A stretch of 64,000 bases of DNA. Origin: an uncultured Blautia sp. Its GTDB lineage: Bacteria; Bacillota; Clostridia; Lachnospirales; Lachnospiraceae. Below, piece after piece: positions 1 through 41,780 of this stretch (position 1 is the first letter of the stretch; every line of letters starts with the position of its first letter). The notes beneath the pieces are model-generated. The model searched no databases, was not told the DNA's origin, and saw only the letters and a list, made by a program, of their open reading frames with translations. Both the position numbers and the translations under genes were made by a program. Where the stretch lies: the NCBI GenBank assembly GCA_900547615.1, contig URHH01000001.1:2296-66295 (forward strand), in the 5' to 3' direction.

Positions 1-465
1 ATTTCCGCCGGCCAGCATGCCCATTGTATTACACAGTACAGTCTCACTCGGGTTTGTACAAGGAGTAATTGCTCCGATTACGCCGAAAGGTCCCATCTCA
101 ATAAGGGTAAGACCTCTGTCGCCTGACCATGCTGTTGTTGTAATATCTTCTGTTCCAGGTGTCTTGTCTGCTACAAGATGATGTTTGAGGATTTTATCCC
201 CTACATTTCCCATACCCGTCTCATCAACACCCATACGCGCAAGAATTTCTGCATTCTCTTTGATTTTCTTTCGAATGCATGTAATAATTTTTTCTCTCTG
301 GTCCATGGACATTTTCTTAACGATAAGTTCAGATTTCTTTGCTGCCTCAATGGCCTCATTCATATCTTTGAAAACGCCATGTTTTCCGGAGGGAGCATCG
401 GCAATCTGCATTTTTGCCATGACTTCCTGTACAATTTCCTGTACCATGCTTTCATTGATTGGCAT
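1..465 (-). CDS. CoA-acylating (propion)aldehyde dehydrogenase, PduP/EutE family, N-terminal 155 codons (3' end lies beyond the window start)
   Basis: Minus-strand translation from ATG at 465-463 (RBS AAGGAGG 8 nt upstream) gives MPINESMVQEIVQEVMAKMQIADAPSG...ETGMGNVGDKILKHHLVADKTPGTEDITTTAWSGDRGLTLIEMGPFGVIGAITPCTNPSETVLCNTMGMLAGGN. The motifs ETGMGN, TPG-EDITTTA, PFGVIG, TNP-ET and MLAGGN are characteristic of PduP/EutE. The reading frame runs off position 1. It is absent from the ORF track because it is truncated. Confidence 0.85.
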   Translation of the reverse strand, partial: MPINESMVQEIVQEVMAKMQIADAPSGKHGVFKDMNEAIEAAKKSELIVKKMSMDQREKIITCIRKKIKENAEILARMGVDETGMGNVGDKILKHHLVADKTPGTEDITTTAWSGDRGLTLIEMGPFGVIGAITPCTNPSETVLCNTMGMLAGGN

Positions 466-505
466 GAAATTGTCCTCCTTCAAATTTTATATATATGCAG
501 CGGAA

Positions 506-1321
506 TTATTTTAATCCCAGCTGTGCCATCACCTGTTTTGTAATGTTTGCTACTAAATCTGCATCTGCTGTATCGCAGGAAGCTGTGCTGTTTTCTGTAT
601 ATGTACAGTGGCTTCCGCAGTTATGGCAGTTAAGTCCGTCTTTGTTTACGCAAAGATTTGCCGGATGTTTGCCCGGAAGACCCATTTTTCTTCTGATTTC
701 ATACAGTTTTTCAATCTGCTCTTTGTCGAATTCCTTCGGTCCGCCAAGCATTTTGGATTTGTAAAGAAGCTCTGCGTAGAATTCAAGAGATTCCATTTTC
801 ATGTATGCAGCCATAAGGTCTGTAGACCATGTAAGAGCACCGTGGTTCTCAAGAAGAACTGCATCAAAGTATGGAAGGTATTTTTCCAGATTGTCCGGAA
901 TTTCCACTGTAGAAGGTGTGCCGTATTCTGCGATCGGAACACATCCAAGAGCGATAACTGCCTCTGGCATGATCGGTGCAGAAAGCGGAATGCCTGCGAT
1001 TGCAAAGCTTGTTGCAAATGTAGGATGTGCATGAACAACAGAACCCACATCCGGTCTTTTCTCGTATACTCTCATATGCATTTTGATTTCAGATGAAGGA
1101 CGGAATCCCGGGTTAGCCTGGATCACATTACCCTGTGCATCTACTTTACAGATAAAGTCCGGAGTCATAAATCCTTTGGAAACTCCTGTAGGTGTGCAAA
1201 GGAATTCGTTGTCATTCAGTTTTACGGAGATATTTCCGTCATTTGCAGCCACCATGTTGCGGTTGTAGATTCTTCTTCCAACTTCACAGATCTGTTTTTT
1301 GATTTCATATTCGTTTACCAT
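506..1321 (-). CDS. class II aldolase/adducin-family protein (L-fuculose-1-phosphate aldolase-like) with a ~55-aa C-terminal extension
   Basis: 271-aa ORF. The core matches the class II aldolase fold (HAHP metal-binding region VVHAHPTFATSFA; ~215 aa). The extra C-terminal tail ...CDTADADLVANITKQVMAQLGLK ends in an amphipathic helix. RBS AAGGAGGAAG precedes the ATG. Confidence 0.75.
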   Translation of the reverse strand: MVNEYEIKKQICEVGRRIYNRNMVAANDGNISVKLNDNEFLCTPTGVSKGFMTPDFICKVDAQGNVIQANPGFRPSSEIKMHMRVYEKRPDVGSVVHAHPTFATSFAIAGIPLSAPIMPEAVIALGCVPIAEYGTPSTVEIPDNLEKYLPYFDAVLLENHGALTWSTDLMAAYMKMESLEFYAELLYKSKMLGGPKEFDKEQIEKLYEIRRKMGLPGKHPANLCVNKDGLNCHNCGSHCTYTENSTASCDTADADLVANITKQVMAQLGLK

Positions 1322-1367
1322 GCTTTCTTCCTCCTTGAGCGCATTTGGTTTAATTGTTTCTGATGTA

Positions 1368-1396
1368 ATTCTACATCATACCACAGGGAAAGTCAA
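1368..1396 (-). promoter_or_regulatory. candidate extended -10 promoter (TGgTATGAT) for the aldolase and aldehyde dehydrogenase genes
   Basis: Minus strand reads TTGACTttccctgtggTATGATgtagaat about 50 nt upstream of the aldolase ATG. The -35-like hexamer is only 10 nt from the -10, so only the extended -10 is credible. Confidence 0.3.
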
Positions 1397-1811
1397 GAAA
1401 TACTTGTTGTTTTCTGTTGTTTTCTCTGTGCATATTATGTTGTTTTTATTGTTTTTTATTGTGGTTTCTTGTTTCCTTGTTCCCAGGGCATCACATCGCC
1501 GTCCTCCCGGAGATATTCCAGGATTTCCGCCACCCCTTCCCAGGTTTTGAAATCCACAAAAAAATCTTTTTGCATCCTGCAAGCCTCAGCCATGATTCCG
1601 CCCTCTTCACCTTCGCATCCGGATGATTAATTTTTGTAACAATACCAACCACCTCTCTGTTTGCCATGCAGGTTATACACGGCGGAAAAAGACAATATGG
1701 CTCAATTGCCGAGACAATCAGTCCCACCACATCTGACTCATATGTATAAAGCGCCAGTGCATGTCCAAGTCCTTTGGTCTGAGCATACTATCCGTATATC
1801 CCATTTGCTTA

Positions 1812-2603
1812 TCACCCTCCTATCTGACAGTCAAGAGAAGAAACTCTCTCCACTGCTTTTTTCAGAGTATTCATATGCTCCGCTTCCGGTGGAAGAATTC
1901 CTTCCATATAATAGTCTCTTCCAAGTCCTTCATACTTATCCTGACCAAGCCTGTGATAAGGAAGCAGATGAATTTTATTGACTCCCGGAAGCGTCGCTGC
2001 AAACTGCGCAATTTCCTGTATTTCTTCTACGGTATCATTAAATGTAGGAATGACCGGAACACGAATCACAAGTTTCGTCTTGCCTGACAAAGCAATCCGC
2101 CTTGCATTTTCCAGCATCTGTTCATTAGAACGTCCGGTAAACTCCTTATGTTTCCCGGGATTCATGTGTTTTATATCCATCAGATAAGTATCCAGCCAGG
2201 GCAGTGCGTTTTCTATATCTTTCCAGGGGGCGCATCCCATGCTCTCTACCGCTGTAGAAATCCCCCTCTCCTTCGCTCCTCGCAAAAGTGCAGCTGTAAA
2301 TTCCGGCTGACAGAAACACTCTCCGCCGGAAAGTGTCATTCCTCCGCCTGAGCGATAATAGTACGCTCTGTCTTTTTCCACTTCCGTCAGAGCCTCCCTG
2401 ACTGTCACATCTCTGCCGATAATCTTGTCTTTCCCTTGAACCTTCATCGTTTCAATTTCATATTCCTGTGATTCCGGATTGCAACACCACCGGCATCTGA
2501 GCACACAGCCTTTTAAAAACACAATAGTCCGGATCCCCGGCCCGTCATGAATGGAATATCTCTGAATGTCAAATATTCTTCCTCTTTTTTCCAAATAATC
2601 CAT
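1812..2603 (-). CDS. glycyl-radical enzyme activating enzyme (radical SAM, PflA-like; no ferredoxin insert)
   Basis: 263 aa. N-terminal GPGIRTIVFLKGCVLRCRWCCNPES is the CxxxCxxC radical-SAM cluster motif in the GRE-activase context. It sits directly downstream of the GRE with a 9-nt gap. Confidence 0.9.
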   Translation of the reverse strand: MDYLEKRGRIFDIQRYSIHDGPGIRTIVFLKGCVLRCRWCCNPESQEYEIETMKVQGKDKIIGRDVTVREALTEVEKDRAYYYRSGGGMTLSGGECFCQPEFTAALLRGAKERGISTAVESMGCAPWKDIENALPWLDTYLMDIKHMNPGKHKEFTGRSNEQMLENARRIALSGKTKLVIRVPVIPTFNDTVEEIQEIAQFAATLPGVNKIHLLPYHRLGQDKYEGLGRDYYMEGILPPEAEHMNTLKKAVERVSSLDCQIGG

Positions 2604-2611
2604 ATTATCTC

Positions 2612-5137
2612 CTAAAATCCCTGCTCCGTCCTACGGATAATATCATCCTGAAGGGAACGGGAAAGAGTGGTAAACAACGCGCTGTATCCAGCCACACGGA
2701 CTACAAGGTGTTTGTATTTTTCCGGATACTTCTGTGCATCAAGAAGTGTATCTCTGTCCACTACATTAAACTGCATATGCATTCCCTTCTGGTCAAAATA
2801 AGAACGGATAAGCGCCACAAACTTTTCAAGCCCCTCTCTGCCTGACAGAGCAGACGGATGAAACTTCTGGTTAAATAAAGTTCCGTTCGATACAATAAAA
2901 TGATCCAGTCTGGAAACAGATGTAGCCGCTGCTGTAGGGCCGTTTACATCTTTTCCAGCGGACGGAGAAACTCCATCTGCCACCGGTGTGTGGGCATATC
3001 TTCCATCCGGAGTTGCACCGGTCTGTCCACCCAGAGGTACATTGGCAGAAACAGGATAAAGTCCCGCCTGGAACTGTCCTCCTCTTGGGTTTTTATAATT
3101 CTGAAGAGGTTTTGTATAAGTATAGGCCACATCCCTCGCAAAGTAGTCCACTTCCGGAATGTCATTTCCAAACTTCGGCACTTCTTCTATCATGTTATGG
3201 ATTTCTTCATAACGTTTCATTTTTTCTTCGCCGGGCTGTGCATTCATCACCGCTTTTAAAATAGAAGAAACTGTATTTTCATCTATTTTCTGTCCGGCAT
3301 CCTTCATTTTTCTCAAAACTGCTTCTGCAGTATCGCTTACCGACTGCTGATCCAGTCCTTTTCCAAAGTTCCATGCAAGAGCTTCTTTCATCTCTTCCAT
3401 AGTCACCTTCTTCTCTTCGTATACAAGCTTCCTTACCGCAAAAAGAGAATCTGCCATATTTGCAATTCCAAATCCCTGGGGACCTGTGAAATTATAAACA
3501 GCTCCACCTTCCTGAACAGACTTTCCGCGTTTCAGACAATCATCCACCATACAGGACAAAAATGGAAGCGGACATCTTTTTGCATGCGCCACATCAATGG
3601 CATTATCTGCATTTACAAGAAGAGAGATACAATATTCCATCTGTTTTTTATAAGCATTATAGAATTCCTCAAAAGAAGACATTTCTGTCACTTCCCCTGT
3701 AGGAACTCCCACCATTTCTCCTTTGTCTTCCCCATTTGCGAATACGAGCTCCAGAGGTCTGCACATATTGAAGAACGCAGCATCATGCCATCCTTCTGTT
3801 TTTCCTGCTTTCTGCGGTTCCACACAACCGATAATGTTATACTCTCTGGCATCTTCCAGGCTTAATCCTCTGTTCTGAAGGGAAGGAATAATCACTTCAT
3901 CATTATAATAAGCCGGAAGACCAATTCCCGTTCTCGTCAGTTCCGCCGCCTTAATAAGAAACTCATGGGGAGAGCCATTCCATACTCTTACTGAGAGAGA
4001 CGGCTGAGGAAGTCTTACATGCATAGAAGCCTGAATACACATAAAAGAAAGGTCATTTGTCACATCTTCTCCTTCCTTATTCTGGCCTCCTGCGATCAGA
4101 TTCTGGAAAAGACTGTATCCTGCGAAACCTTCTGCTGATACTGCATCTCTGCATTTATTCAGATCATTTAGTTTTACCCAGATGCAGTCCATAAGTTCCT
4201 GCGCAAACTCTCTTGAAATATTTCCATTTTCCATATCCTTTTTATAATAAGGATACATATATTGATCGAAACGTCCCGGAGAAATAGAATGTCCGCTGGA
4301 TTCCAACTGAATCAGCTGCTGAACAAACCAGAAGGACTGGCATGCTTCATAGAAATTCTGTGCTCCTTTGGCAGGAACACGGCTGCAGTTTTCGGCAATC
4401 CTAAGAAGCTCTTCTTTTCTCGCCGCATCTGTGCACTGCTCTGCCATCTCCTGTGCGAGAGTACTGTATCTCCGGGCATATTCTATTACAGCCTGACAAC
4501 TTAAAATCACTGCCTGCAGGAAATGAGAACGTTCCGCATAATCCCCGTCTCCTACATTGCATTCAGAAAGCTCCTGCTCCGCCTTTTTTATGATTCCCTC
4601 ATAACCGACAGCAAGAACCTCTTCATATTTTACAGTTACATGTCCTACACCATTATAGAAATAATTTCCCGGTGTAAAAATATTATGTTCAATTGCACGT
4701 ACTGCTTCCGGAGCCATATAAGAAAGCGCCAGCTCACTTGTTGTTTTTCCTTTCCAGTACTTATGCACTTCGCGAAGCTCCTCTTTTGTCTCCTCTGCAA
4801 TATAAAAAGGATCTGCGCTTCTTGTTTCCACTGTATCCAGCTCATCTTCCAGCCACTGATAAGAAAACTCCGGATATGTCTGGCATCCTCTTGGCGCCAG
4901 TGTAGAACTTCCCACAATCAGTTCGTCATCCCGGATAATAATCGGAATATGACGAAGAATATGGGCAAATGCTTTCGCCCTCCTTGTGATAATGGGTTCG
5001 TTTTCTGTTGCTTTGTAGGATTCTGTAAGAAGTTTTGCTCTTGCAGATTCAATCACAGGCATATGCTCATATAAATGATCTACAAGTCTTTGAATCCTCT
5101 CTGTTTTTGGAATATCAGATGTTTGAAATTTTTCCAT
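2612..5137 (-). CDS. glycyl radical enzyme, dehydratase/lyase clade (single catalytic Cys); likely B12-independent 1,2-propanediol dehydratase
   Basis: 841 aa. C-terminal glycyl-radical motif RVAGYSALF. Active-site loop NIIGCVEPQ has a single Cys plus Glu, not the PFL Cys-Cys pair. The context is an activase, a fuculose-phosphate-like aldolase and a PduP-like aldehyde dehydrogenase. The exact substrate (propanediol versus glycerol, choline or other) cannot be fixed from sequence alone. Confidence 0.85.
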   Translation of the reverse strand: MEKFQTSDIPKTERIQRLVDHLYEHMPVIESARAKLLTESYKATENEPIITRRAKAFAHILRHIPIIIRDDELIVGSSTLAPRGCQTYPEFSYQWLEDELDTVETRSADPFYIAEETKEELREVHKYWKGKTTSELALSYMAPEAVRAIEHNIFTPGNYFYNGVGHVTVKYEEVLAVGYEGIIKKAEQELSECNVGDGDYAERSHFLQAVILSCQAVIEYARRYSTLAQEMAEQCTDAARKEELLRIAENCSRVPAKGAQNFYEACQSFWFVQQLIQLESSGHSISPGRFDQYMYPYYKKDMENGNISREFAQELMDCIWVKLNDLNKCRDAVSAEGFAGYSLFQNLIAGGQNKEGEDVTNDLSFMCIQASMHVRLPQPSLSVRVWNGSPHEFLIKAAELTRTGIGLPAYYNDEVIIPSLQNRGLSLEDAREYNIIGCVEPQKAGKTEGWHDAAFFNMCRPLELVFANGEDKGEMVGVPTGEVTEMSSFEEFYNAYKKQMEYCISLLVNADNAIDVAHAKRCPLPFLSCMVDDCLKRGKSVQEGGAVYNFTGPQGFGIANMADSLFAVRKLVYEEKKVTMEEMKEALAWNFGKGLDQQSVSDTAEAVLRKMKDAGQKIDENTVSSILKAVMNAQPGEEKMKRYEEIHNMIEEVPKFGNDIPEVDYFARDVAYTYTKPLQNYKNPRGGQFQAGLYPVSANVPLGGQTGATPDGRYAHTPVADGVSPSAGKDVNGPTAAATSVSRLDHFIVSNGTLFNQKFHPSALSGREGLEKFVALIRSYFDQKGMHMQFNVVDRDTLLDAQKYPEKYKHLVVRVAGYSALFTTLSRSLQDDIIRRTEQGF

Positions 5138-5236
5138 GCTGCTCCTTTCTCATGACCAATGCGTATTGAAAAGCAACTCTTCTCCGCGCTTATCAGGCAG
5201 CTTTCCTCTTTATTCCGGTTCATGTCATATAATTTC

Positions 5237-5265
5237 ATTATACCCTTTTCTTTTTTTGATGTCAA
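5237..5265 (-). promoter_or_regulatory. sigma-A type promoter for the GRE operon (TTGACA-17-TATAAT on the minus strand)
   Basis: Minus strand reads TTGACAtcaaaaaaagaaaagggTATAAT. Both hexamers are perfect consensus with a 17-nt spacer. It lies ~95 nt upstream of the GRE ATG at 5137. Confidence 0.55.
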
Positions 5266-5290
5266 CAAAATCCAACACTTCTCCTTCTGC

Positions 5291-5328
5291 ATTTGTGTGG
5301 TTTTTTCCGGATTATTTGTGTGGTTTTT
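5291..5328. repeat. tandem direct repeat ATTTGTGTGGTTTTT x2 (23-nt register) in the divergent GRE/PHP intergenic region
   Basis: atttgtgtggtttttt at ~5291 and atttgtgtggttttt at ~5314. They lie 25-60 nt upstream of the GRE -35 element. Confidence 0.4.
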
Positions 5329-5426
5329 GTTTGTTTTTTCAAGAAACGTGTTTTTTCGTGTTGACAATATTTTTTCACTCTGTCATACTGAATATAACCA
5401 AATTCACCAAAGGAGGACATGAGCTT

Positions 5427-6140
5427 ATGTATCTTTCCGATATGCACACTCATTCCATCGCAAGCGGTCACGGAACGATTTGCACTATATCAGATATGGC
5501 AAAATCCGCCGAACAAAAAGGACTGAAACTTCTCGGAATCACCGACCACGGTCCCGCAACCCTCTGCGCCGGCACTCCATCCTATTTCAGAAGTCTCACC
5601 TTTTCTCCAAAAAAGCGCTTTCATGTGGAAATTTTATACGGTGTAGAATTAAATATACTTGACACAGAAGGAACCATAGACCTGGATGAAGAGCTTCTTT
5701 CCCGTCTTGATTATGCAATTGCAAGTATGCATGCCCAAAATTACAGAACCGGTACAAGAGAAGAAAACACAAAAGCATATATAAACGTTATGAAACATCC
5801 ATGTGTCAAAATCCTGGGACACTGCGACAATCCGCACTTCCCTGCCGATTATGAAGCTCTTGCCATTGCCGCAAAAAAAAGCGGAACTGCTTTTGAAATT
5901 AACGAAGCTTCTCTCGCCCCCTATGGATACCGGGGTAATACCAGAGAAAATAACAGAGAAATTCTTTACTGGGCGCGAAAATATGAAGTTCCCGTTCTTC
6001 TATCAAGCGACAGCCACGGGGCAGAGCATGTTGGAGATTTTACTTACGCAGAAGAATTTATTCATAACGAATTATTTCCGGAAGAACTGATTCTCAACAA
6101 TCAGCTTCCCAGACTAAAAGTATTTTTACAGACAAGATAA
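5427..6140 (+). CDS. PHP-domain (polymerase/histidinol-phosphatase family) metal-dependent phosphoesterase
   Basis: Start moved to the ATG at 5427 (MYLSDMHTHSIASGHG...) because RBS AAAGGAGGA lies 9 nt upstream. The 5' part of the listed ORF is antisense low-complexity sequence. His-rich PHP motifs are present: MHTHS, ITDHG and SSDSHG. Confidence 0.75.
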   Translation: MYLSDMHTHSIASGHGTICTISDMAKSAEQKGLKLLGITDHGPATLCAGTPSYFRSLTFSPKKRFHVEILYGVELNILDTEGTIDLDEELLSRLDYAIASMHAQNYRTGTREENTKAYINVMKHPCVKILGHCDNPHFPADYEALAIAAKKSGTAFEINEASLAPYGYRGNTRENNREILYWARKYEVPVLLSSDSHGAEHVGDFTYAEEFIHNELFPEELILNNQLPRLKVFLQTR

Positions 6141-6153
6141 GGAGATACCTGCC

Positions 6154-7530
6154 ATGAATCAGACAGAACATTCTATTTCTTCTGAGGAATCCCCTCTGGG
6201 AACTGCCCCTATCGGGCAGCTTTTAAAAAAATTTGCCATTCCCAGCATCATCAGTATGCTGGTGGGCGCACTTTATAATATCGTAGACCAGATTTTTATT
6301 GGACAAGGTGTGGGAATGCTGGGAAACGCAGCTACGAACGTGGCTTTTCCCCTTACGACCATCTCAACTGCCGTCTGTCTCCTTTTGGGAATAGGAGGCG
6401 CAGCAAATTATAATCTGGAGCTTGGCCGAAAAAACAAAGATAAAGCGAGAAACATTGCAGGCACAGCTTTTGGAAGCCTTATTATTTTCGGCATTTCTCT
6501 CTGCCTTCTGATCCGCTGCTTTTTAACCCCCCTTGTCATTGCCTGCGGAGCAACGGAACAGACTCTTCCATACTCCCTTTCCTATGTAGGAATTACCTCC
6601 CTGGGTTTTCCATTTTACATACTTGCAACAGGCGGAAATCATCTTGTGCGGGCAGACGGAAAACCAGCATACTCCATGTTTGCCACCTTATCAGGAGCTG
6701 TCATCAACACAGTTCTTGACCCTCTTTTTATTTTTGGTTTTGGATGGGGTATTGAAGGCGCAGCCTGGGCAACGGTAATCGGTCAGATTTTTTCTGCCTG
6801 CATGATTCTCTTTTACCTGCCGAAATATCAGGAACATTCTCTTACCTTACGTCACTTCATCCCAAAAGCAAGCTGTTTGCATGCCATTATTTCTCTTGGC
6901 TCTGCTTCCTTCTTAAATCAGCTCGCCATTACAGTTGTACAGATTCTTCTTAACAATACGCTCCGTCATTACGGCGCGGAATCTATTTATGGAAGTGACA
7001 TTCCCATTGCAGTGGCAGGAATTGTCTCAAAAGTAAATATGCTGTTCCTCTCGGTTGTTATCGGTATTTCTCAGGGAGCACAGCCTATTATCAGCTTTAA
7101 CTACGGCGCAGAAAATTTTGAGCGCGTAAAAAAAGCCTACCTGAAAGCAGCCGGAATTGCTTCTGCGGTAGCTTTTACAGGTTTTCTATGTTTCCAGATT
7201 TTTCCAAGACAGATTATCTCTGTTTTTGGAAGCGGCGACAAACTATATTATCAATTTGCCGTTAAGTTTTTCCGAATTTTCCTGTTCTGCACCTTCTTTA
7301 ACGGACTGCAGCCTGTAACTGCAAATTTTTTTACTTCCATCGGAAAAGCAACAAAAGGAATTTTTCTTTCTATGACAAGACAGATTATTTTTCTCATTCC
7401 TCTTGTTATCATCTTTCCTCTGTTCATGGGTGTGGAAGGAGTCATGTTCGCAGCCCCTATTGCAGACTGTGCCGCAGGGATACTTGCTATTCTGTTAGTA
7501 AAAAAAGAGTTCAAGAAAATGACGGTATAA
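6154..7530 (+). CDS. MATE-family multidrug/oligosaccharidyl-lipid efflux transporter
   Basis: 458 aa, about 12 predicted TM helices. Typical MATE N-terminus (...PIGQLLKKFAIPSIISMLVGALYNIVDQIFIGQGVG). Confidence 0.85.
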   Translation: MNQTEHSISSEESPLGTAPIGQLLKKFAIPSIISMLVGALYNIVDQIFIGQGVGMLGNAATNVAFPLTTISTAVCLLLGIGGAANYNLELGRKNKDKARNIAGTAFGSLIIFGISLCLLIRCFLTPLVIACGATEQTLPYSLSYVGITSLGFPFYILATGGNHLVRADGKPAYSMFATLSGAVINTVLDPLFIFGFGWGIEGAAWATVIGQIFSACMILFYLPKYQEHSLTLRHFIPKASCLHAIISLGSASFLNQLAITVVQILLNNTLRHYGAESIYGSDIPIAVAGIVSKVNMLFLSVVIGISQGAQPIISFNYGAENFERVKKAYLKAAGIASAVAFTGFLCFQIFPRQIISVFGSGDKLYYQFAVKFFRIFLFCTFFNGLQPVTANFFTSIGKATKGIFLSMTRQIIFLIPLVIIFPLFMGVEGVMFAAPIADCAAGILAILLVKKEFKKMTV

Positions 7531-7550
7531 ATACCACGTAATAAACACAA

Positions 7551-32855: not shown

Positions 32856-37466
<4,611 letters not shown>

Positions 37467-38224: not shown

Positions 38225-38460
38225 ATGCCCGCCTTCGAATAAAAGCGGACAACATCCCAGGGTGCGGAATCCCTGAAACTGGTCGTTACACTTTACACGG
38301 AAGCTTAACCTCGCCATATTAAGCAGGTTTCCTGACTTCAGAATCAACGCTTACCTCTCCTTCTCATGCTATGGCACAATGGATCTCTGAGGCTTACTCC
38401 TCTGTTACAGTGACCGGATCGCTCAGGACTTTCACCTGATTCCCTTTTCTGTTTTGTTCG
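38225..38460 (-). promoter_or_regulatory. cobalamin (B12) riboswitch #1
   Basis: Minus strand reads AAAAGGGAATCAGGTGAAAGTCCTGAGCGATCCGGTCACTGTAA ... AGTCAGGAAACCTGC. These are the conserved GGGAA/GGTGAAA core, the B12-box (GNCACTG) and the downstream GTCAGGAAACCTGC element. The leader is ~430 nt. Confidence 0.75.
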
Positions 38461-38512
38461 CTATGGTAACAAACAGCACTTAATACGTTCACTATGGAAT
38501 TATACTAACCAT

Positions 38513-41529: not shown

Positions 41530-41735
41530 TAAAATACACGTATAGTATCGGATTTTACTCAAACAGGTTGCCTTTACCGGAAGCTTCCTATCGTTCCTGT
41601 CAAGCAGGTTTCCTGACTTACGGATTATTGCTCCAGCGCCTTCTCACAGAATTTCTTCCGCAATGGCTTTGCTTTCACTCCCCGTTTACAGTGGCCGGAC
41701 CGTTCAGGCTTTTCACCTGATTCCCTTTTACCTCT
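41530..41735 (-). promoter_or_regulatory. cobalamin (B12) riboswitch #2
   Basis: Minus strand reads AAAAGGGAATCAGGTGAAAAGCCTGAACGGTCCGGCCACTGTAAACGG ... AGTCAGGAAACCTGC. It has a consensus B12 box (GCCACTG) and is paralogous to riboswitch #1. Confidence 0.8.
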
Positions 41736-41780
41736 TTTCGAGCACTTAACAAGTAAACTTAATTCATTTATACTTTTCCT

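What the first reader, a model, noticed from the sequence alone, without database searches (positions are those of the whole stretch)
1..5137. Edge of a glycyl-radical-enzyme microcompartment locus with encapsulation-peptide-like termini on both the aldolase and the aldehyde dehydrogenase
GRE (single-Cys dehydratase type), activase, a class II fuculose-phosphate-like aldolase and a PduP-like CoA-acylating aldehyde dehydrogenase are co-oriented. The aldolase carries an extra C-terminal ~55-aa tail ending in the amphipathic helix DLVANITKQVMAQLGLK. The dehydrogenase starts with the amphipathic MVQEIVQEVMAKMQI followed by a linker. These are hallmarks of BMC encapsulation peptides (GRM5-type fucose/rhamnose microcompartments). 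The shell genes must lie beyond position 1. The activase is short (263 aa) and lacks the extra ferredoxin domain usual for dehydratase-clade activases.
Basis: partly seen in the sequence, partly recalled or inferred. Interest (0 to 1): 0.55.

Follow-up and report, generated by a model that had tools for sequence, protein, structure and literature searches.

The report
Edge of a fucose/rhamnose microcompartment locus

Summary
Observation confirmed, interpretation supported, novelty low. On the minus strand lie a glycyl-radical enzyme (5137..2612, 841 aa), its activase (2603..1812, 263 aa), a class II aldolase (1321..506, 271 aa) and the first 155 aa of a CoA-acylating aldehyde dehydrogenase (465..1).

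The GRE aligns without gaps to the Roseburia inulinivorans propanediol dehydratase (67% identity, same active-site residues). The activase lacks the ferredoxin insert, a published GRM5 trait. The aldolase tail is a disordered linker plus a terminal helix conserved in 80 of 80 orthologues. The dehydrogenase N-terminal helix is conserved too.

Contigs about 98% identical to the window continue past position 1 with lactaldehyde reductase, six BMC-domain shell genes plus one EutN-type vertex gene, PduL, PduS, DeoR and an Fe-ADH.

- The 490-bp gap holds the scar of a ~500-bp deletion. It removed a PduU/EutS-type shell gene and the 5' part of a PduV/EutP GTPase gene.
- The GRE carries the internal two-helix insertion proposed as its own encapsulation signal.
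- The aldolase "linker" starts with a conserved Cys/His cluster.
- In this species the same shell locus ends with a complete B12-dependent PduCDE-GH-O set, and its PduD has an encapsulation peptide.

The parts
5237..5265 (-). Promoter-like site TTGACA-17-TATAAT, about 100 nt upstream of the GRE start codon
   Evidence: 12 of 12 consensus matches. Overall, promoter-like sites in the region are no more frequent than in shuffles, so this is a consensus match only.
2612..5137 (-). Glycyl-radical 1,2-propanediol dehydratase (841 aa), RiDD orthologue; C438, E440, G817, H166, F344, V696
3221..3364 (-). 48-aa internal insertion of the GRE (aa 592-639, GKGLDQQSVSDTAEAVLRKMKDAGQKIDENTVSSILKAVMNAQPGEEK). 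It is absent from glycerol dehydratase. This is the two-helix insertion proposed in the literature as the intramolecular encapsulation peptide of GRM3/4/5 GREs.
   Evidence: query 591/640 join at residue 586 of 1r8w.: present in all 42 orthologues, column conservation 0.41 against 0.80 for the whole protein.: amphipathic segments. Literature: PMC5311937, PMC6325248.
1812..2603 (-). GRE activase (radical SAM, 263 aa) without the ferredoxin-like insert
   Evidence: the matched stretch is 252-265 aa in 43 of 46 species representatives with an adjacent activase; the three shorter matches are partial hits.
1784..1804 (-). Stub (7 codons, MGYTDSM) of a PduU/EutS-type permuted BMC-H shell gene. The rest was removed by a ~500-bp deletion. 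The junction has AGTATGC microhomology at 1789..1783.
   Evidence: The intact 125-aa gene in L001 matches the EutS family.
1456..1787 (-). 3' remnant of a PduV/EutP-family GTPase gene. It lacks the first ~44 codons including the P-loop and carries a 1-nt frameshift in a T-run at 1565..1559. It is a pseudogene.
   Evidence: The intact 156-aa gene in L001 matches TIGR02528 EutP/PduV.
1368..1396 (-). Promoter-like site TTGACT-17-TAGAAT, 47 nt upstream of the aldolase start codon. It is retained in all alleles.
   Evidence: consensus match only
506..1321 (-). Class II (fuculose/rhamnulose-phosphate type) aldolase, 271 aa, FucA fold in residues 1-213
605..652 (-). Conserved Cys/His cluster at the start of the aldolase tail: C224-x7-C232-H-x-C235-x3-C239 (CVNKDGLNCHNCGSHC)
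   Evidence: C224, C232, H233 and C235 invariant in 21 sequences.: motif in 77 of 80 orthologues, a fourth Cys in 73 of 80.: CxxC or CxxCxxC clusters at the same place in distant BMC-type aldolases.
521..562 (-). C-terminal encapsulation-peptide helix of the aldolase (aa 254-267, ADLVANITKQVMAQ)
   Evidence: helix 254-267 at pLDDT 81-91, after a linker with pLDDT below 50.: conserved in 80 of 80.
1..465 (-). First 155 aa of a PduP/EutE-type CoA-acylating aldehyde dehydrogenase, cut by the window edge (462 aa in near-identical contigs)
403..447 (-). N-terminal encapsulation-peptide helix of the aldehyde dehydrogenase (aa 7-21, MVQEIVQEVMAKMQI), followed by the short linker ADAPSGKHG

Best explanation
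Window 1..5265 is the promoter-proximal end of a GRM5-type microcompartment locus, the glycyl-radical fucose/rhamnose-utilisation type, in an uncultured human-gut Blautia species.

Inferred pathway, from the GRM5 model of Petit 2013, Zarzycki 2015 and Ferlez 2019:
1. The aldolase cleaves L-fuculose-1-P or L-rhamnulose-1-P into DHAP and L-lactaldehyde.
2. A Zn-ADH, encoded just beyond the window, reduces lactaldehyde to 1,2-propanediol.
3. The glycyl-radical enzyme, activated once by its radical-SAM activase, dehydrates propanediol to propionaldehyde.
4. The CoA-acylating aldehyde dehydrogenase makes propionyl-CoA and regenerates NADH.
5. PduL and an Fe-ADH finish the route to propionate and propanol.

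The toxic aldehydes stay inside a protein shell. Cargo is recruited by short amphipathic helices on flexible linkers: C-terminal on the aldolase, N-terminal on the dehydrogenase, reductase and PduL, and an internal two-helix insertion in the GRE.

Shown here: gene identities, orthology to the characterised RiDD enzyme, conservation and predicted helical state of the peptides, and the shell genes in near-identical contigs. Inferred: substrate, actual encapsulation, and that the window's own contig continues the same way.
For: - Domains and family matches.
- GRE 67% identical and gap-free over residues 3-840 with RiDD 5i2a. H166, F344, C438, E440, V696 and G817 are identical to RiDD and invariant in 42 orthologues. 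Relative to glycerol dehydratase, F344 replaces Tyr, V696 replaces Ser, and there is a 48-aa insertion.
- The activase is colinear with PFL-AE and has no ferredoxin insert. The same holds in 46 related species. PMC6325248 gives this as a GRM5-only trait.
- AlphaFold model of the aldolase at pLDDT 88.7: FucA fold to residue 213, low-confidence linker, confident terminal helix 254-267.
- Aldolase tail helix conserved in 80 of 80 orthologues. N-terminal helices of the dehydrogenase, reductase and PduL conserved.
- Contigs with the identical aldolase, 97-99% DNA identity and the same deletion allele (L008) carry the full shell and enzyme set.
- The same gene order recurs in 80 Lachnospiraceae-type species representatives and in C. 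phytofermentans and R. inulinivorans, where the locus is induced on fucose/rhamnose and polyhedral bodies are seen (PMC3557285).
Against: - Nothing in the window itself encodes an intact shell protein. Continuation of this particular contig is inferred from other samples.
- No fucose or rhamnose isomerase or kinase was identified in the parts of the window I annotated.
- In this allele the PduU-type shell gene and the PduV GTPase gene are destroyed, so the organelle may differ from that of strains with the intact pair.
- Encapsulation and substrate are not shown experimentally for this organism.
- The hydrophobic moments of the two helices are only moderate.
Confidence: 0.9

Rival explanations
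1. The locus is decaying in this strain. Loss of the PduU-type shell gene and the PduV GTPase gene means no proper microcompartment forms, and the enzymes, if still used, work free in the cytosol.
For: The deletion and an additional frameshift leave only pseudogene remnants at 1804..1456. A second contig, L004, has a different junction with filler DNA at the same place, suggesting repeated loss.
Against: - All other genes are intact and full-length in the window and in L008, which carries the same deletion.
- 14 of 46 related species naturally lack the pair between activase and aldolase and 4 keep only PduU, while retaining the rest of the locus.
- From established Salmonella Pdu genetics (my knowledge, not tested here), pduU and pduV are not required for shell formation.
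- Five BMC-domain shell genes (four BMC-H-type and the PduT-type BMC-T) and one BMC-P vertex gene remain.
Confidence: 0.07
2. The terminal extensions are not encapsulation signals. They serve another role, for example oligomerisation, regulation or metal binding in the aldolase tail, and the aldolase acts in the cytosol, feeding lactaldehyde or propanediol to the compartment.
For: - The aldolase tail contains a conserved Cys/His cluster that is unnecessary for a mere linker.
- No direct test of targeting exists for a GRM5 aldolase in the papers I read.
- The hydrophobic moment is moderate.
Against: - The terminal helix, not just the Cys cluster, is conserved in 80 of 80, while the linker between them varies from about 10 to 40 residues.
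- Four cargo proteins of the same locus, and PduD as well, carry helices with a shared core: I-[VT]-[KQR]-x-V-[ML] in aldolase, AldDH, reductase and PduL, and ITKAVVEQL in PduD.
- Tails ending in such helices are found on aldolases of many BMC types, whereas solved non-BMC FucA proteins are 203-215 aa.
- PduP-type N-terminal helices are experimentally proven targeting signals (cited in PMC4594438).
Confidence: 0.06
3. The GRE is not a propanediol dehydratase. It acts on glycerol or another diol or amine, so the locus has a different substrate.
For: GRE eliminases are hard to assign from sequence (PMC13450708). The NCBIfam best match is only the broad PFL2/glycerol-dehydratase subfamily, and no equivalog cut-off is reached.
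Against: - 67% identity without gaps to the biochemically and structurally characterised RiDD.
- The residues that differ between RiDD and glycerol dehydratase (F344, V696) follow RiDD and are invariant in 42 orthologues.
- The gene neighbours (aldolase, lactaldehyde-reductase-type ADH) fit propanediol production in situ.
Confidence: 0.05

Closest known systems
GRM5 loci of Roseburia inulinivorans A2-194 and Clostridium (Lachnoclostridium) phytofermentans (Cphy_1174-1186)
   Same: - Same gene order: GRE, activase, PduU-like shell gene, aldolase, PduP-like dehydrogenase, ADH, shell genes, PduL, PduN, PduS, PduT, DeoR (PMC3557285).
- GRE 67% identical to RiDD with the same active site and internal insertion.
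- Activase without the ferredoxin domain.
- Aldolase with a C-terminal EP and dehydrogenase with an N-terminal EP (PMC4594438, PMC6325248).
   Different: - In the window allele the PduU-like gene, and the PduV gene that follows it in this clade, are deleted or pseudogenised.
- In this Blautia species the locus is followed by a complete B12-dependent pduCDE-pduGH-pduO set. Petit et al. state that the two classic loci lack such genes.
Salmonella/Citrobacter PDU microcompartment (B12-dependent 1,2-propanediol utilisation)
   Same: The downstream chemistry is the same: propionaldehyde to propionyl-CoA to propionyl-phosphate or propanol. It shares PduP with an N-terminal EP, PduL, PduS/PduT, PduU/PduV, PduN and PduA/J-like shell proteins. 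The species also carries PduCDE-GH-O with a PduD N-terminal EP.
   Different: The signature enzyme in the window is a glycyl-radical dehydratase with a radical-SAM activase. An aldolase and a lactaldehyde reductase are added, so the substrate is a sugar phosphate rather than free propanediol. The regulator is DeoR-type rather than PocR.
PVM / PVM-like / ACI microcompartments (class II aldolase as signature enzyme)
   Same: A PF00596 aldolase with a C-terminal linker and amphipathic helix. Distant representatives with such tails were recovered at 37-50% identity.
   Different: Those types have no GRE or activase, and lactaldehyde is processed directly by the core enzymes (PMC4594438, PMC8217296).
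GRM3 (Rhodopseudomonas palustris BisB18, E. coli CFT073) propanediol microcompartment
   Same: A GRE propanediol dehydratase with an internal two-helix insertion proposed as an EP (PMC5311937).
   Different: GRM3 activases carry the ferredoxin-like insert. GRM3 has no aldolase or lactaldehyde reductase. The GRM3 GRE is only about 52% identical to the GRM5 enzyme (PMC5311937).

Membership tests
GRM5 microcompartment locus | Adjacent GRE (PF02901 + PF01228) and radical-SAM activase (PF04055) | tested here: met
   859.7, 125.5 and 59.1 bits. The genes are 8 nt apart on the same strand.
GRM5 microcompartment locus | GRE belongs to the 1,2-propanediol dehydratase clade (RiDD-like active site) | tested here: met
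   67% identity, gap-free. H166, F344, C438, E440, V696 and G817 are as in RiDD.
GRM5 microcompartment locus | GRE has no N-terminal EP but carries an internal insertion of about 50-60 aa | tested here: met
   48 aa (592-639) absent from 1r8w.: present in all orthologues.
GRM5 microcompartment locus | Activase lacks the ~70-aa ferredoxin-like insertion (stated to be unique to GRM5 among GRMs, PMC6325248) | tested here: met
   263 aa, colinear with PFL-AE, and about 40-45 positions of the dehydratase-type activase profiles are skipped.
GRM5 microcompartment locus | Class II aldolase (PF00596) with a C-terminal linker and encapsulation peptide | tested here: met
GRM5 microcompartment locus | Lactaldehyde reductase (PF08240 + PF00107 Zn-ADH) | tested here: inconclusive
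   Not in the window, because it lies beyond position 1. Present as a 410-412-aa gene right after the dehydrogenase in seven of the eight near-identical contigs L001-L008 (357 aa in L004) and in L092, with an N-terminal EP.
GRM5 microcompartment locus | Shell genes: BMC-H (PF00936), BMC-P (PF03319) and BMC-T | tested here: inconclusive
   No intact shell gene in the 64-kb window; only a 7-codon stub of one at 1804..1784. Four BMC-H, one BMC-P and one PduT-type BMC-T lie in contigs 97-99% identical to the window.
GRM5 microcompartment locus | PduS and PduT present, GrpU absent (57/57 GRM5 loci, PMC6325248) | tested here: inconclusive
   PduS-like (442 aa) and PduT-like (182 aa) genes are in the near-identical contigs. 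The 125-aa permuted BMC-H matches EutS/PduU and shows no G-x-C-P-Q-N/H pore motif. None of this lies inside the window.
GRM5 microcompartment locus | Cargo is physically encapsulated, and the locus is induced by and needed for fucose/rhamnose fermentation | not testable with these tools
   Needs microscopy, BMC proteomics and growth tests. Shown only for C. phytofermentans and R. inulinivorans (PMC3557285).
PduP/EutE-type CoA-acylating aldehyde dehydrogenase with N-terminal EP | Full-length match to the PRK15398 family, including the N-terminal helix | tested here: met
   window fragment residues 4-155 match profile positions 2-158, 188 bits.: the full 462-aa protein scores 657 bits against a cut-off of 403. 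The helix is conserved in orthologues.
L-fuculose-phosphate aldolase (FucA) equivalog | Score above the curated equivalog cut-off, and FucA metal and catalytic residues | tested here: inconclusive
   - No NCBIfam equivalog cut-off is reached; the best FucA-type model scores 114.6 bits against 264.
- The fold matches FucA at TM 0.88-0.91.
- Of the residues I equate, from memory, with the FucA metal ligands and catalytic Glu, H97 is invariant and E78, H99 and H160 nearly invariant.
- Substrate specificity (fuculose-P versus rhamnulose-P) is not decided.

The most novel reading that the evidence does not exclude
In this Blautia species one set of shell genes is flanked by two alternative radical diol dehydratases, each with its own encapsulation signal. 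At the front is the B12-independent GRE with its activase, carrying the internal insertion. At the back is a complete B12-dependent PduCDE-PduGH-PduO set, in which PduD carries a 70-aa N-terminal extension starting MELNEQLIQAITKAVVEQLQG.

The organelle could then load either enzyme according to cobalamin and redox supply. That would be a cofactor-flexible hybrid of GRM5 and PDU. The classic GRM5 descriptions say the type lacks pduCDE.

A second, smaller novelty concerns the aldolase 'linker'. Its conserved C-x7-C-H-x-C-x(1-4)-C cluster may bind a metal or an Fe-S cluster.
Probability: 0.4. Interest if true: 0.5.

Novelty: new member of a known kind. Interest (0 to 1): 0.25.

Why it matters
As given, the finding adds another gut Blautia to the list of GRM5 carriers. 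That is useful for annotating propionate and propanol production from fucose and rhamnose (mucin and human-milk-oligosaccharide sugars), but it brings no conceptual advance.

Three by-products are worth more:
- A natural deletion polymorphism of the PduU/PduV pair within one species offers ready-made isogenic material to ask what these two accessory proteins do.
- The co-residence of a GRE and a B12-dependent diol dehydratase around one shell set would make the question 'why two radical solutions for one reaction?' testable in a single organism.
- The conserved cysteine cluster in a region so far treated as an unconserved linker deserves a metal analysis.

Tried and rejected
- tblastn of PduA, EutM, EutN and PduN against the whole window found no shell gene. 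The shell therefore had to be sought in related contigs.
- Rfam found nothing in 1..5600, even at E up to 1. No riboswitch or leader RNA can be claimed for the GRE or aldolase 5' regions.
- The first AlphaFold run on a shallow alignment (21 sequences, 72-93% identical) gave pLDDT 57.9 and was not used for conclusions. It was repeated with 49 more diverse sequences.
- The Cys cluster remained at pLDDT about 40-50 in the good model, so structure prediction neither supports nor refutes a metal site.
- The primary papers for RiDD (PMC4957038) and for the GRM bioinformatics (PMC4644659) are not held. Their content is cited only through papers that quote them. My recollection that F344 and V696 form the methyl pocket is marked as my own knowledge, backed here only by the alignment to glycerol dehydratase.
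- GrpU identity for the deleted 125-aa shell gene was rejected. It matches EutS/PduU and lacks the G-x-C-P-Q motif.
- The protein search with the PduC fragment returned mostly truncated cluster representatives. The one followed (P0307) came from a different organism with a stand-alone pduCDE operon. The right context came from the metagenome scan.
- The species-representative scan did not contain the window's own species at over 93% aldolase identity. The organism name rests on source names for the identical proteins.

Full report
**What is in the sequence**

All genes of the finding lie on the minus strand:
- A glycyl-radical enzyme (GRE), 5137..2612, 841 aa.
- 8 nt later, a radical-SAM activase, 2603..1812, 263 aa.
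- A 490-bp gap.
- A class II aldolase, 1321..506, 271 aa.
- 40 nt later, an aldehyde dehydrogenase that starts at 465 (MPINESMVQEIVQEVMAKMQIADAPSGKHG...) and runs off the window after 155 aa.

Pfam and NCBIfam confirm the families: PFL-like plus Gly_radical, Radical_SAM, Aldolase_II (residues 10-186 only), and Aldedh of the PduP/EutE-like PRK15398 subfamily. The last match already covers residues 4-155, which includes the N-terminal helix.

The divergent genes beyond 5137 are a PHP phosphoesterase and a MATE transporter. The locus therefore starts at the GRE, and the rest must lie past position 1, downstream in the transcriptional sense. A perfect TTGACA-17-TATAAT sits about 100 nt before the GRE. 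A weaker promoter-like site precedes the aldolase (consensus matches only).

**The GRE**

It aligns without a single gap, residues 3-840 to 3-840, with the Roseburia inulinivorans diol dehydratase RiDD (PDB 5i2a). Identity is 67%.
- The thiyl cysteine C438 sits in a single-Cys loop GCVEP.
- E440, H166 and the radical glycine G817 are identical to RiDD.
- F344 and V696 are also identical. In the alignment with Clostridium butyricum glycerol dehydratase these two positions are Tyr and Ser. From memory of the RiDD paper, which I could not open, they form the pocket for the C3 methyl group.
- All six residues are invariant in 42 orthologues.

Relative to glycerol dehydratase the protein has a 48-aa insertion (aa 592-639, window 3364..3221). 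It is present in every orthologue but is much less conserved than the rest, with column conservation 0.41 against 0.80. It contains two amphipathic segments. This is the 'intramolecular' two-helix element that Zarzycki et al. proposed as the encapsulation peptide of GRM3 and GRM5 GREs (PMC5311937, PMC6325248).

**The activase**

It is colinear with E. coli PFL-AE. It matches the dehydratase-type activase profiles in two pieces that skip about 40-45 profile positions. The only cysteine motif is the radical-SAM CX3CX2C.

In 43 of 46 related species with an adjacent activase the matched stretch is 252-265 aa; the three shorter matches are partial hits.

This is not an oddity of this genome. [quoted passage not shown]

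**The aldolase tail**

With a 49-sequence alignment AlphaFold gives a confident model, mean pLDDT 88.7:
- A FucA fold up to residue 213.
- A low-confidence stretch at 221-251.
- A terminal helix at 254-267 with pLDDT 81-91.

Foldseek places the core on L-fuculose-phosphate aldolases at TM 0.88-0.91. All solved relatives are 203-215 aa, so the tail has no counterpart in them.

In 80 species representatives (72-93% identical) the terminal helix (D/E)-L-V-A-x-I-T-K-K-V-M-E-Q-L-G is always present. The linker before it varies widely in length and sequence. More distant representatives (37-50% identical) from other microcompartment types also end in such helices. This is the C-terminal encapsulation peptide of BMC-associated class II aldolases described by Aussignargues et al. 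for PVM, PVM-like and GRM5 loci (PMC4594438).

One detail is not in that description, which calls the linker unconserved. The tail begins with HPAxLC-x7-C-H-x-C-G-x(1-2)-C.
- C224, C232, H233 and C235 are invariant in the 21-sequence alignment.
- The motif is present in 77 of 80 orthologues, with a fourth Cys in 73 of 80.
- Distant BMC aldolases have CxxC or CxxCxxC clusters at the same place: 22 of 68 long tails carry CxxC, for example CTNCGAC and CETCGYC.

The model is not confident there, so whether it binds a metal remains open.

**The dehydrogenase N-terminus and other cargo**

The helix MVQEIVQEVMAKMQI, followed by a short variable linker, is conserved in the orthologues.

In the extended locus the Zn-ADH (MDMNNVNIEEIVKQVLSGM plus an Ala/Pro-rich linker) and PduL (NNIELITRMVLQAINQ) carry N-terminal helices too.

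Four cargo helices share the core I-[VT]-[KQR]-x-V-[ML]. This is direct reading of the sequences.

By the Eisenberg moment the aldolase and dehydrogenase helices are only moderately amphipathic, at the 86th-93rd percentile within their proteins. The h-h-x-x-h-h-x-x-h-h spacing is the better descriptor.

**Shell genes**

None is intact in the 64-kb window.

The exact aldolase protein is on record in 531 blocks of public assemblies. Eight contigs were read (L001-L008) and align to window 1..7536 at 97-99% DNA identity. After the aldolase they encode:
- the 462-aa dehydrogenase
- a Zn-ADH of 410-412 aa (357 aa in L004)
- four BMC-H genes
- PduL
- a BMC-P (EutN/PduN)
- a PduS-like flavoprotein
- a PduT-like BMC-T
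- DeoR
- an Fe-ADH

The same order recurs across 80 Lachnospiraceae-type species representatives. [quoted passage not shown]

Source names for the identical proteins give the organism as an uncultured Blautia sp..

**The 490-bp gap is a deletion scar**

In six of the eight contigs the activase and aldolase are separated by two genes. One is a 125-aa permuted BMC-H of the EutS/PduU family. The other is a 156-aa EutP/PduV GTPase.

The window, like L008, lacks about 500 bp.
- The first seven codons of the shell gene (1804..1784) are joined, through an AGTATGC microhomology, to codon ~45 of pduV.
- The pduV remnant (1787..1456) has lost its P-loop and also carries a 1-nt frameshift in a T-run.
- L004 has a different junction with filler DNA, so the pair was probably lost more than once.

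Among 46 species with an adjacent activase and aldolase, 28 have both genes, 4 have only PduU and 14 have neither. The pair is evidently dispensable, which argues against reading the deletion as decay of the whole locus.

**Beyond the finding: two dehydratases**

About 110 bp after the Fe-ADH the near-identical contigs begin a B12-dependent diol dehydratase large subunit.

A metagenome contig 99.5% identical to L008 over 10.9 kb (L092) shows the rest:
- PduC, 554 aa.
- PduD, 222 aa. Its domain starts only at residue 71, preceded by MELNEQLIQAITKAVVEQLQG and a Pro/Gln/Gly-rich linker, which is an encapsulation peptide of the same flavour.
- PduE, PduG, PduH and a PduO-type adenosyltransferase.
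- Then unrelated glycosyltransferase genes.

At least five species representatives have both the GRE and PduC around one shell set. At least six have PduC with no GRE next to the aldolase. The 10-kb flanks truncate most cases.

Petit et al. state that the classic GRM5 loci lack pduCDE and pduGH. Ravcheev et al. noted one case of a B12 enzyme next to a fucose/rhamnose BMC, in C. methylpentosum. I found no description of the dual arrangement in the held literature. This lies outside the window and rests on other samples of the same species.

**Verdict**

The flagged 'hallmarks' (aldolase C-terminal EP, dehydrogenase N-terminal EP, short activase) are published, defining traits of GRM5.

As a finding it is an ordinary new member of a known kind. 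Modest extra value lies in the pduU-pduV deletion polymorphism, the conserved Cys/His cluster in the aldolase tail, and the GRE-plus-B12 hybrid architecture of the full locus.

Noticed in passing
window 1456-1804 (minus strand): The gap between activase and aldolase is the scar of a ~500-bp deletion. It removed a PduU/EutS-type shell gene (7 codons left) and the 5' part of a PduV/EutP GTPase gene. The remnant also has a frameshift. The allele is shared with L008. L004 has an independent junction, and six other contigs of the same species are intact.
   Followed up: yes
L001 19961-20816; L092 10001-15972 (same species, about 10-16 kb beyond window position 1): The same microcompartment locus ends with a complete B12-dependent pduCDE-pduGH-pduO set. 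PduD has a 70-aa N-terminal extension with an encapsulation-peptide-like helix. One shell set is thus flanked by a glycyl-radical and a B12-dependent diol dehydratase.
   Followed up: partly
window 605-652 (minus strand), aldolase aa 224-239: A conserved C-x7-C-H-x-C-x3-C cluster lies at the start of the supposedly unconserved EP linker. It is present in 77 of 80 orthologues, and distant BMC aldolases have CxxC or CxxCxxC clusters at the same place. It may be a metal site. The AlphaFold confidence there is low.
   Followed up: partly
window 7537-31263: A ~23.7-kb segment is absent from all eight near-identical contigs, where the MATE gene joins the next shared segment within about 90 bp. It encodes Gfo/Idh/MocA oxidoreductases, two DHDPS-family aldolases, an MBL-fold lactonase-like protein, an enolase-superfamily dehydratase, two sugar ABC transporters, IclR, a GH63/MGH1-like hydrolase, glycerate kinase and an alpha-amylase-family protein. 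It looks like a strain-specific carbohydrate/sugar-acid island.
   Followed up: partly
window 32856-37433 (minus strand): A 1525-aa ORF. It aligns at 99% DNA identity to the 1525-aa multidomain GH2 beta-galactosidase-like gene called in contigs L003 and L008, and is absent from the other six contigs. This is another presence/absence polymorphism. The window copy itself was not scanned against Pfam.
   Followed up: no
window 38305-38498 and 41586-41764 (minus strand): Two full-length cobalamin riboswitches (96.5 and 100.5 bits) precede gene clusters that I did not annotate. They may be relevant to B12 supply for the PduCDE enzyme of the same organism.
   Followed up: no
window 403-447, 521-562; L001 12264-13502, 14988-15632; L092 11677-12345: The encapsulation helices of the cargo proteins of this locus are alike. 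Four share I-[VT]-[KQR]-x-V-[ML]: IVQEVMAKM (AldDH), ITKQVMAQL (aldolase), IVKQVLSGM (reductase) and ITRMVLQAI (PduL). PduD has the close variant ITKAVVEQL. The general literature says EPs of different enzymes lack sequence similarity.
   Followed up: partly
window 1812-2603: One public source names the identical-cluster activase '4-hydroxyphenylacetate decarboxylase activating enzyme'. This is a misannotation, given its partner GRE and its context.
   Followed up: no
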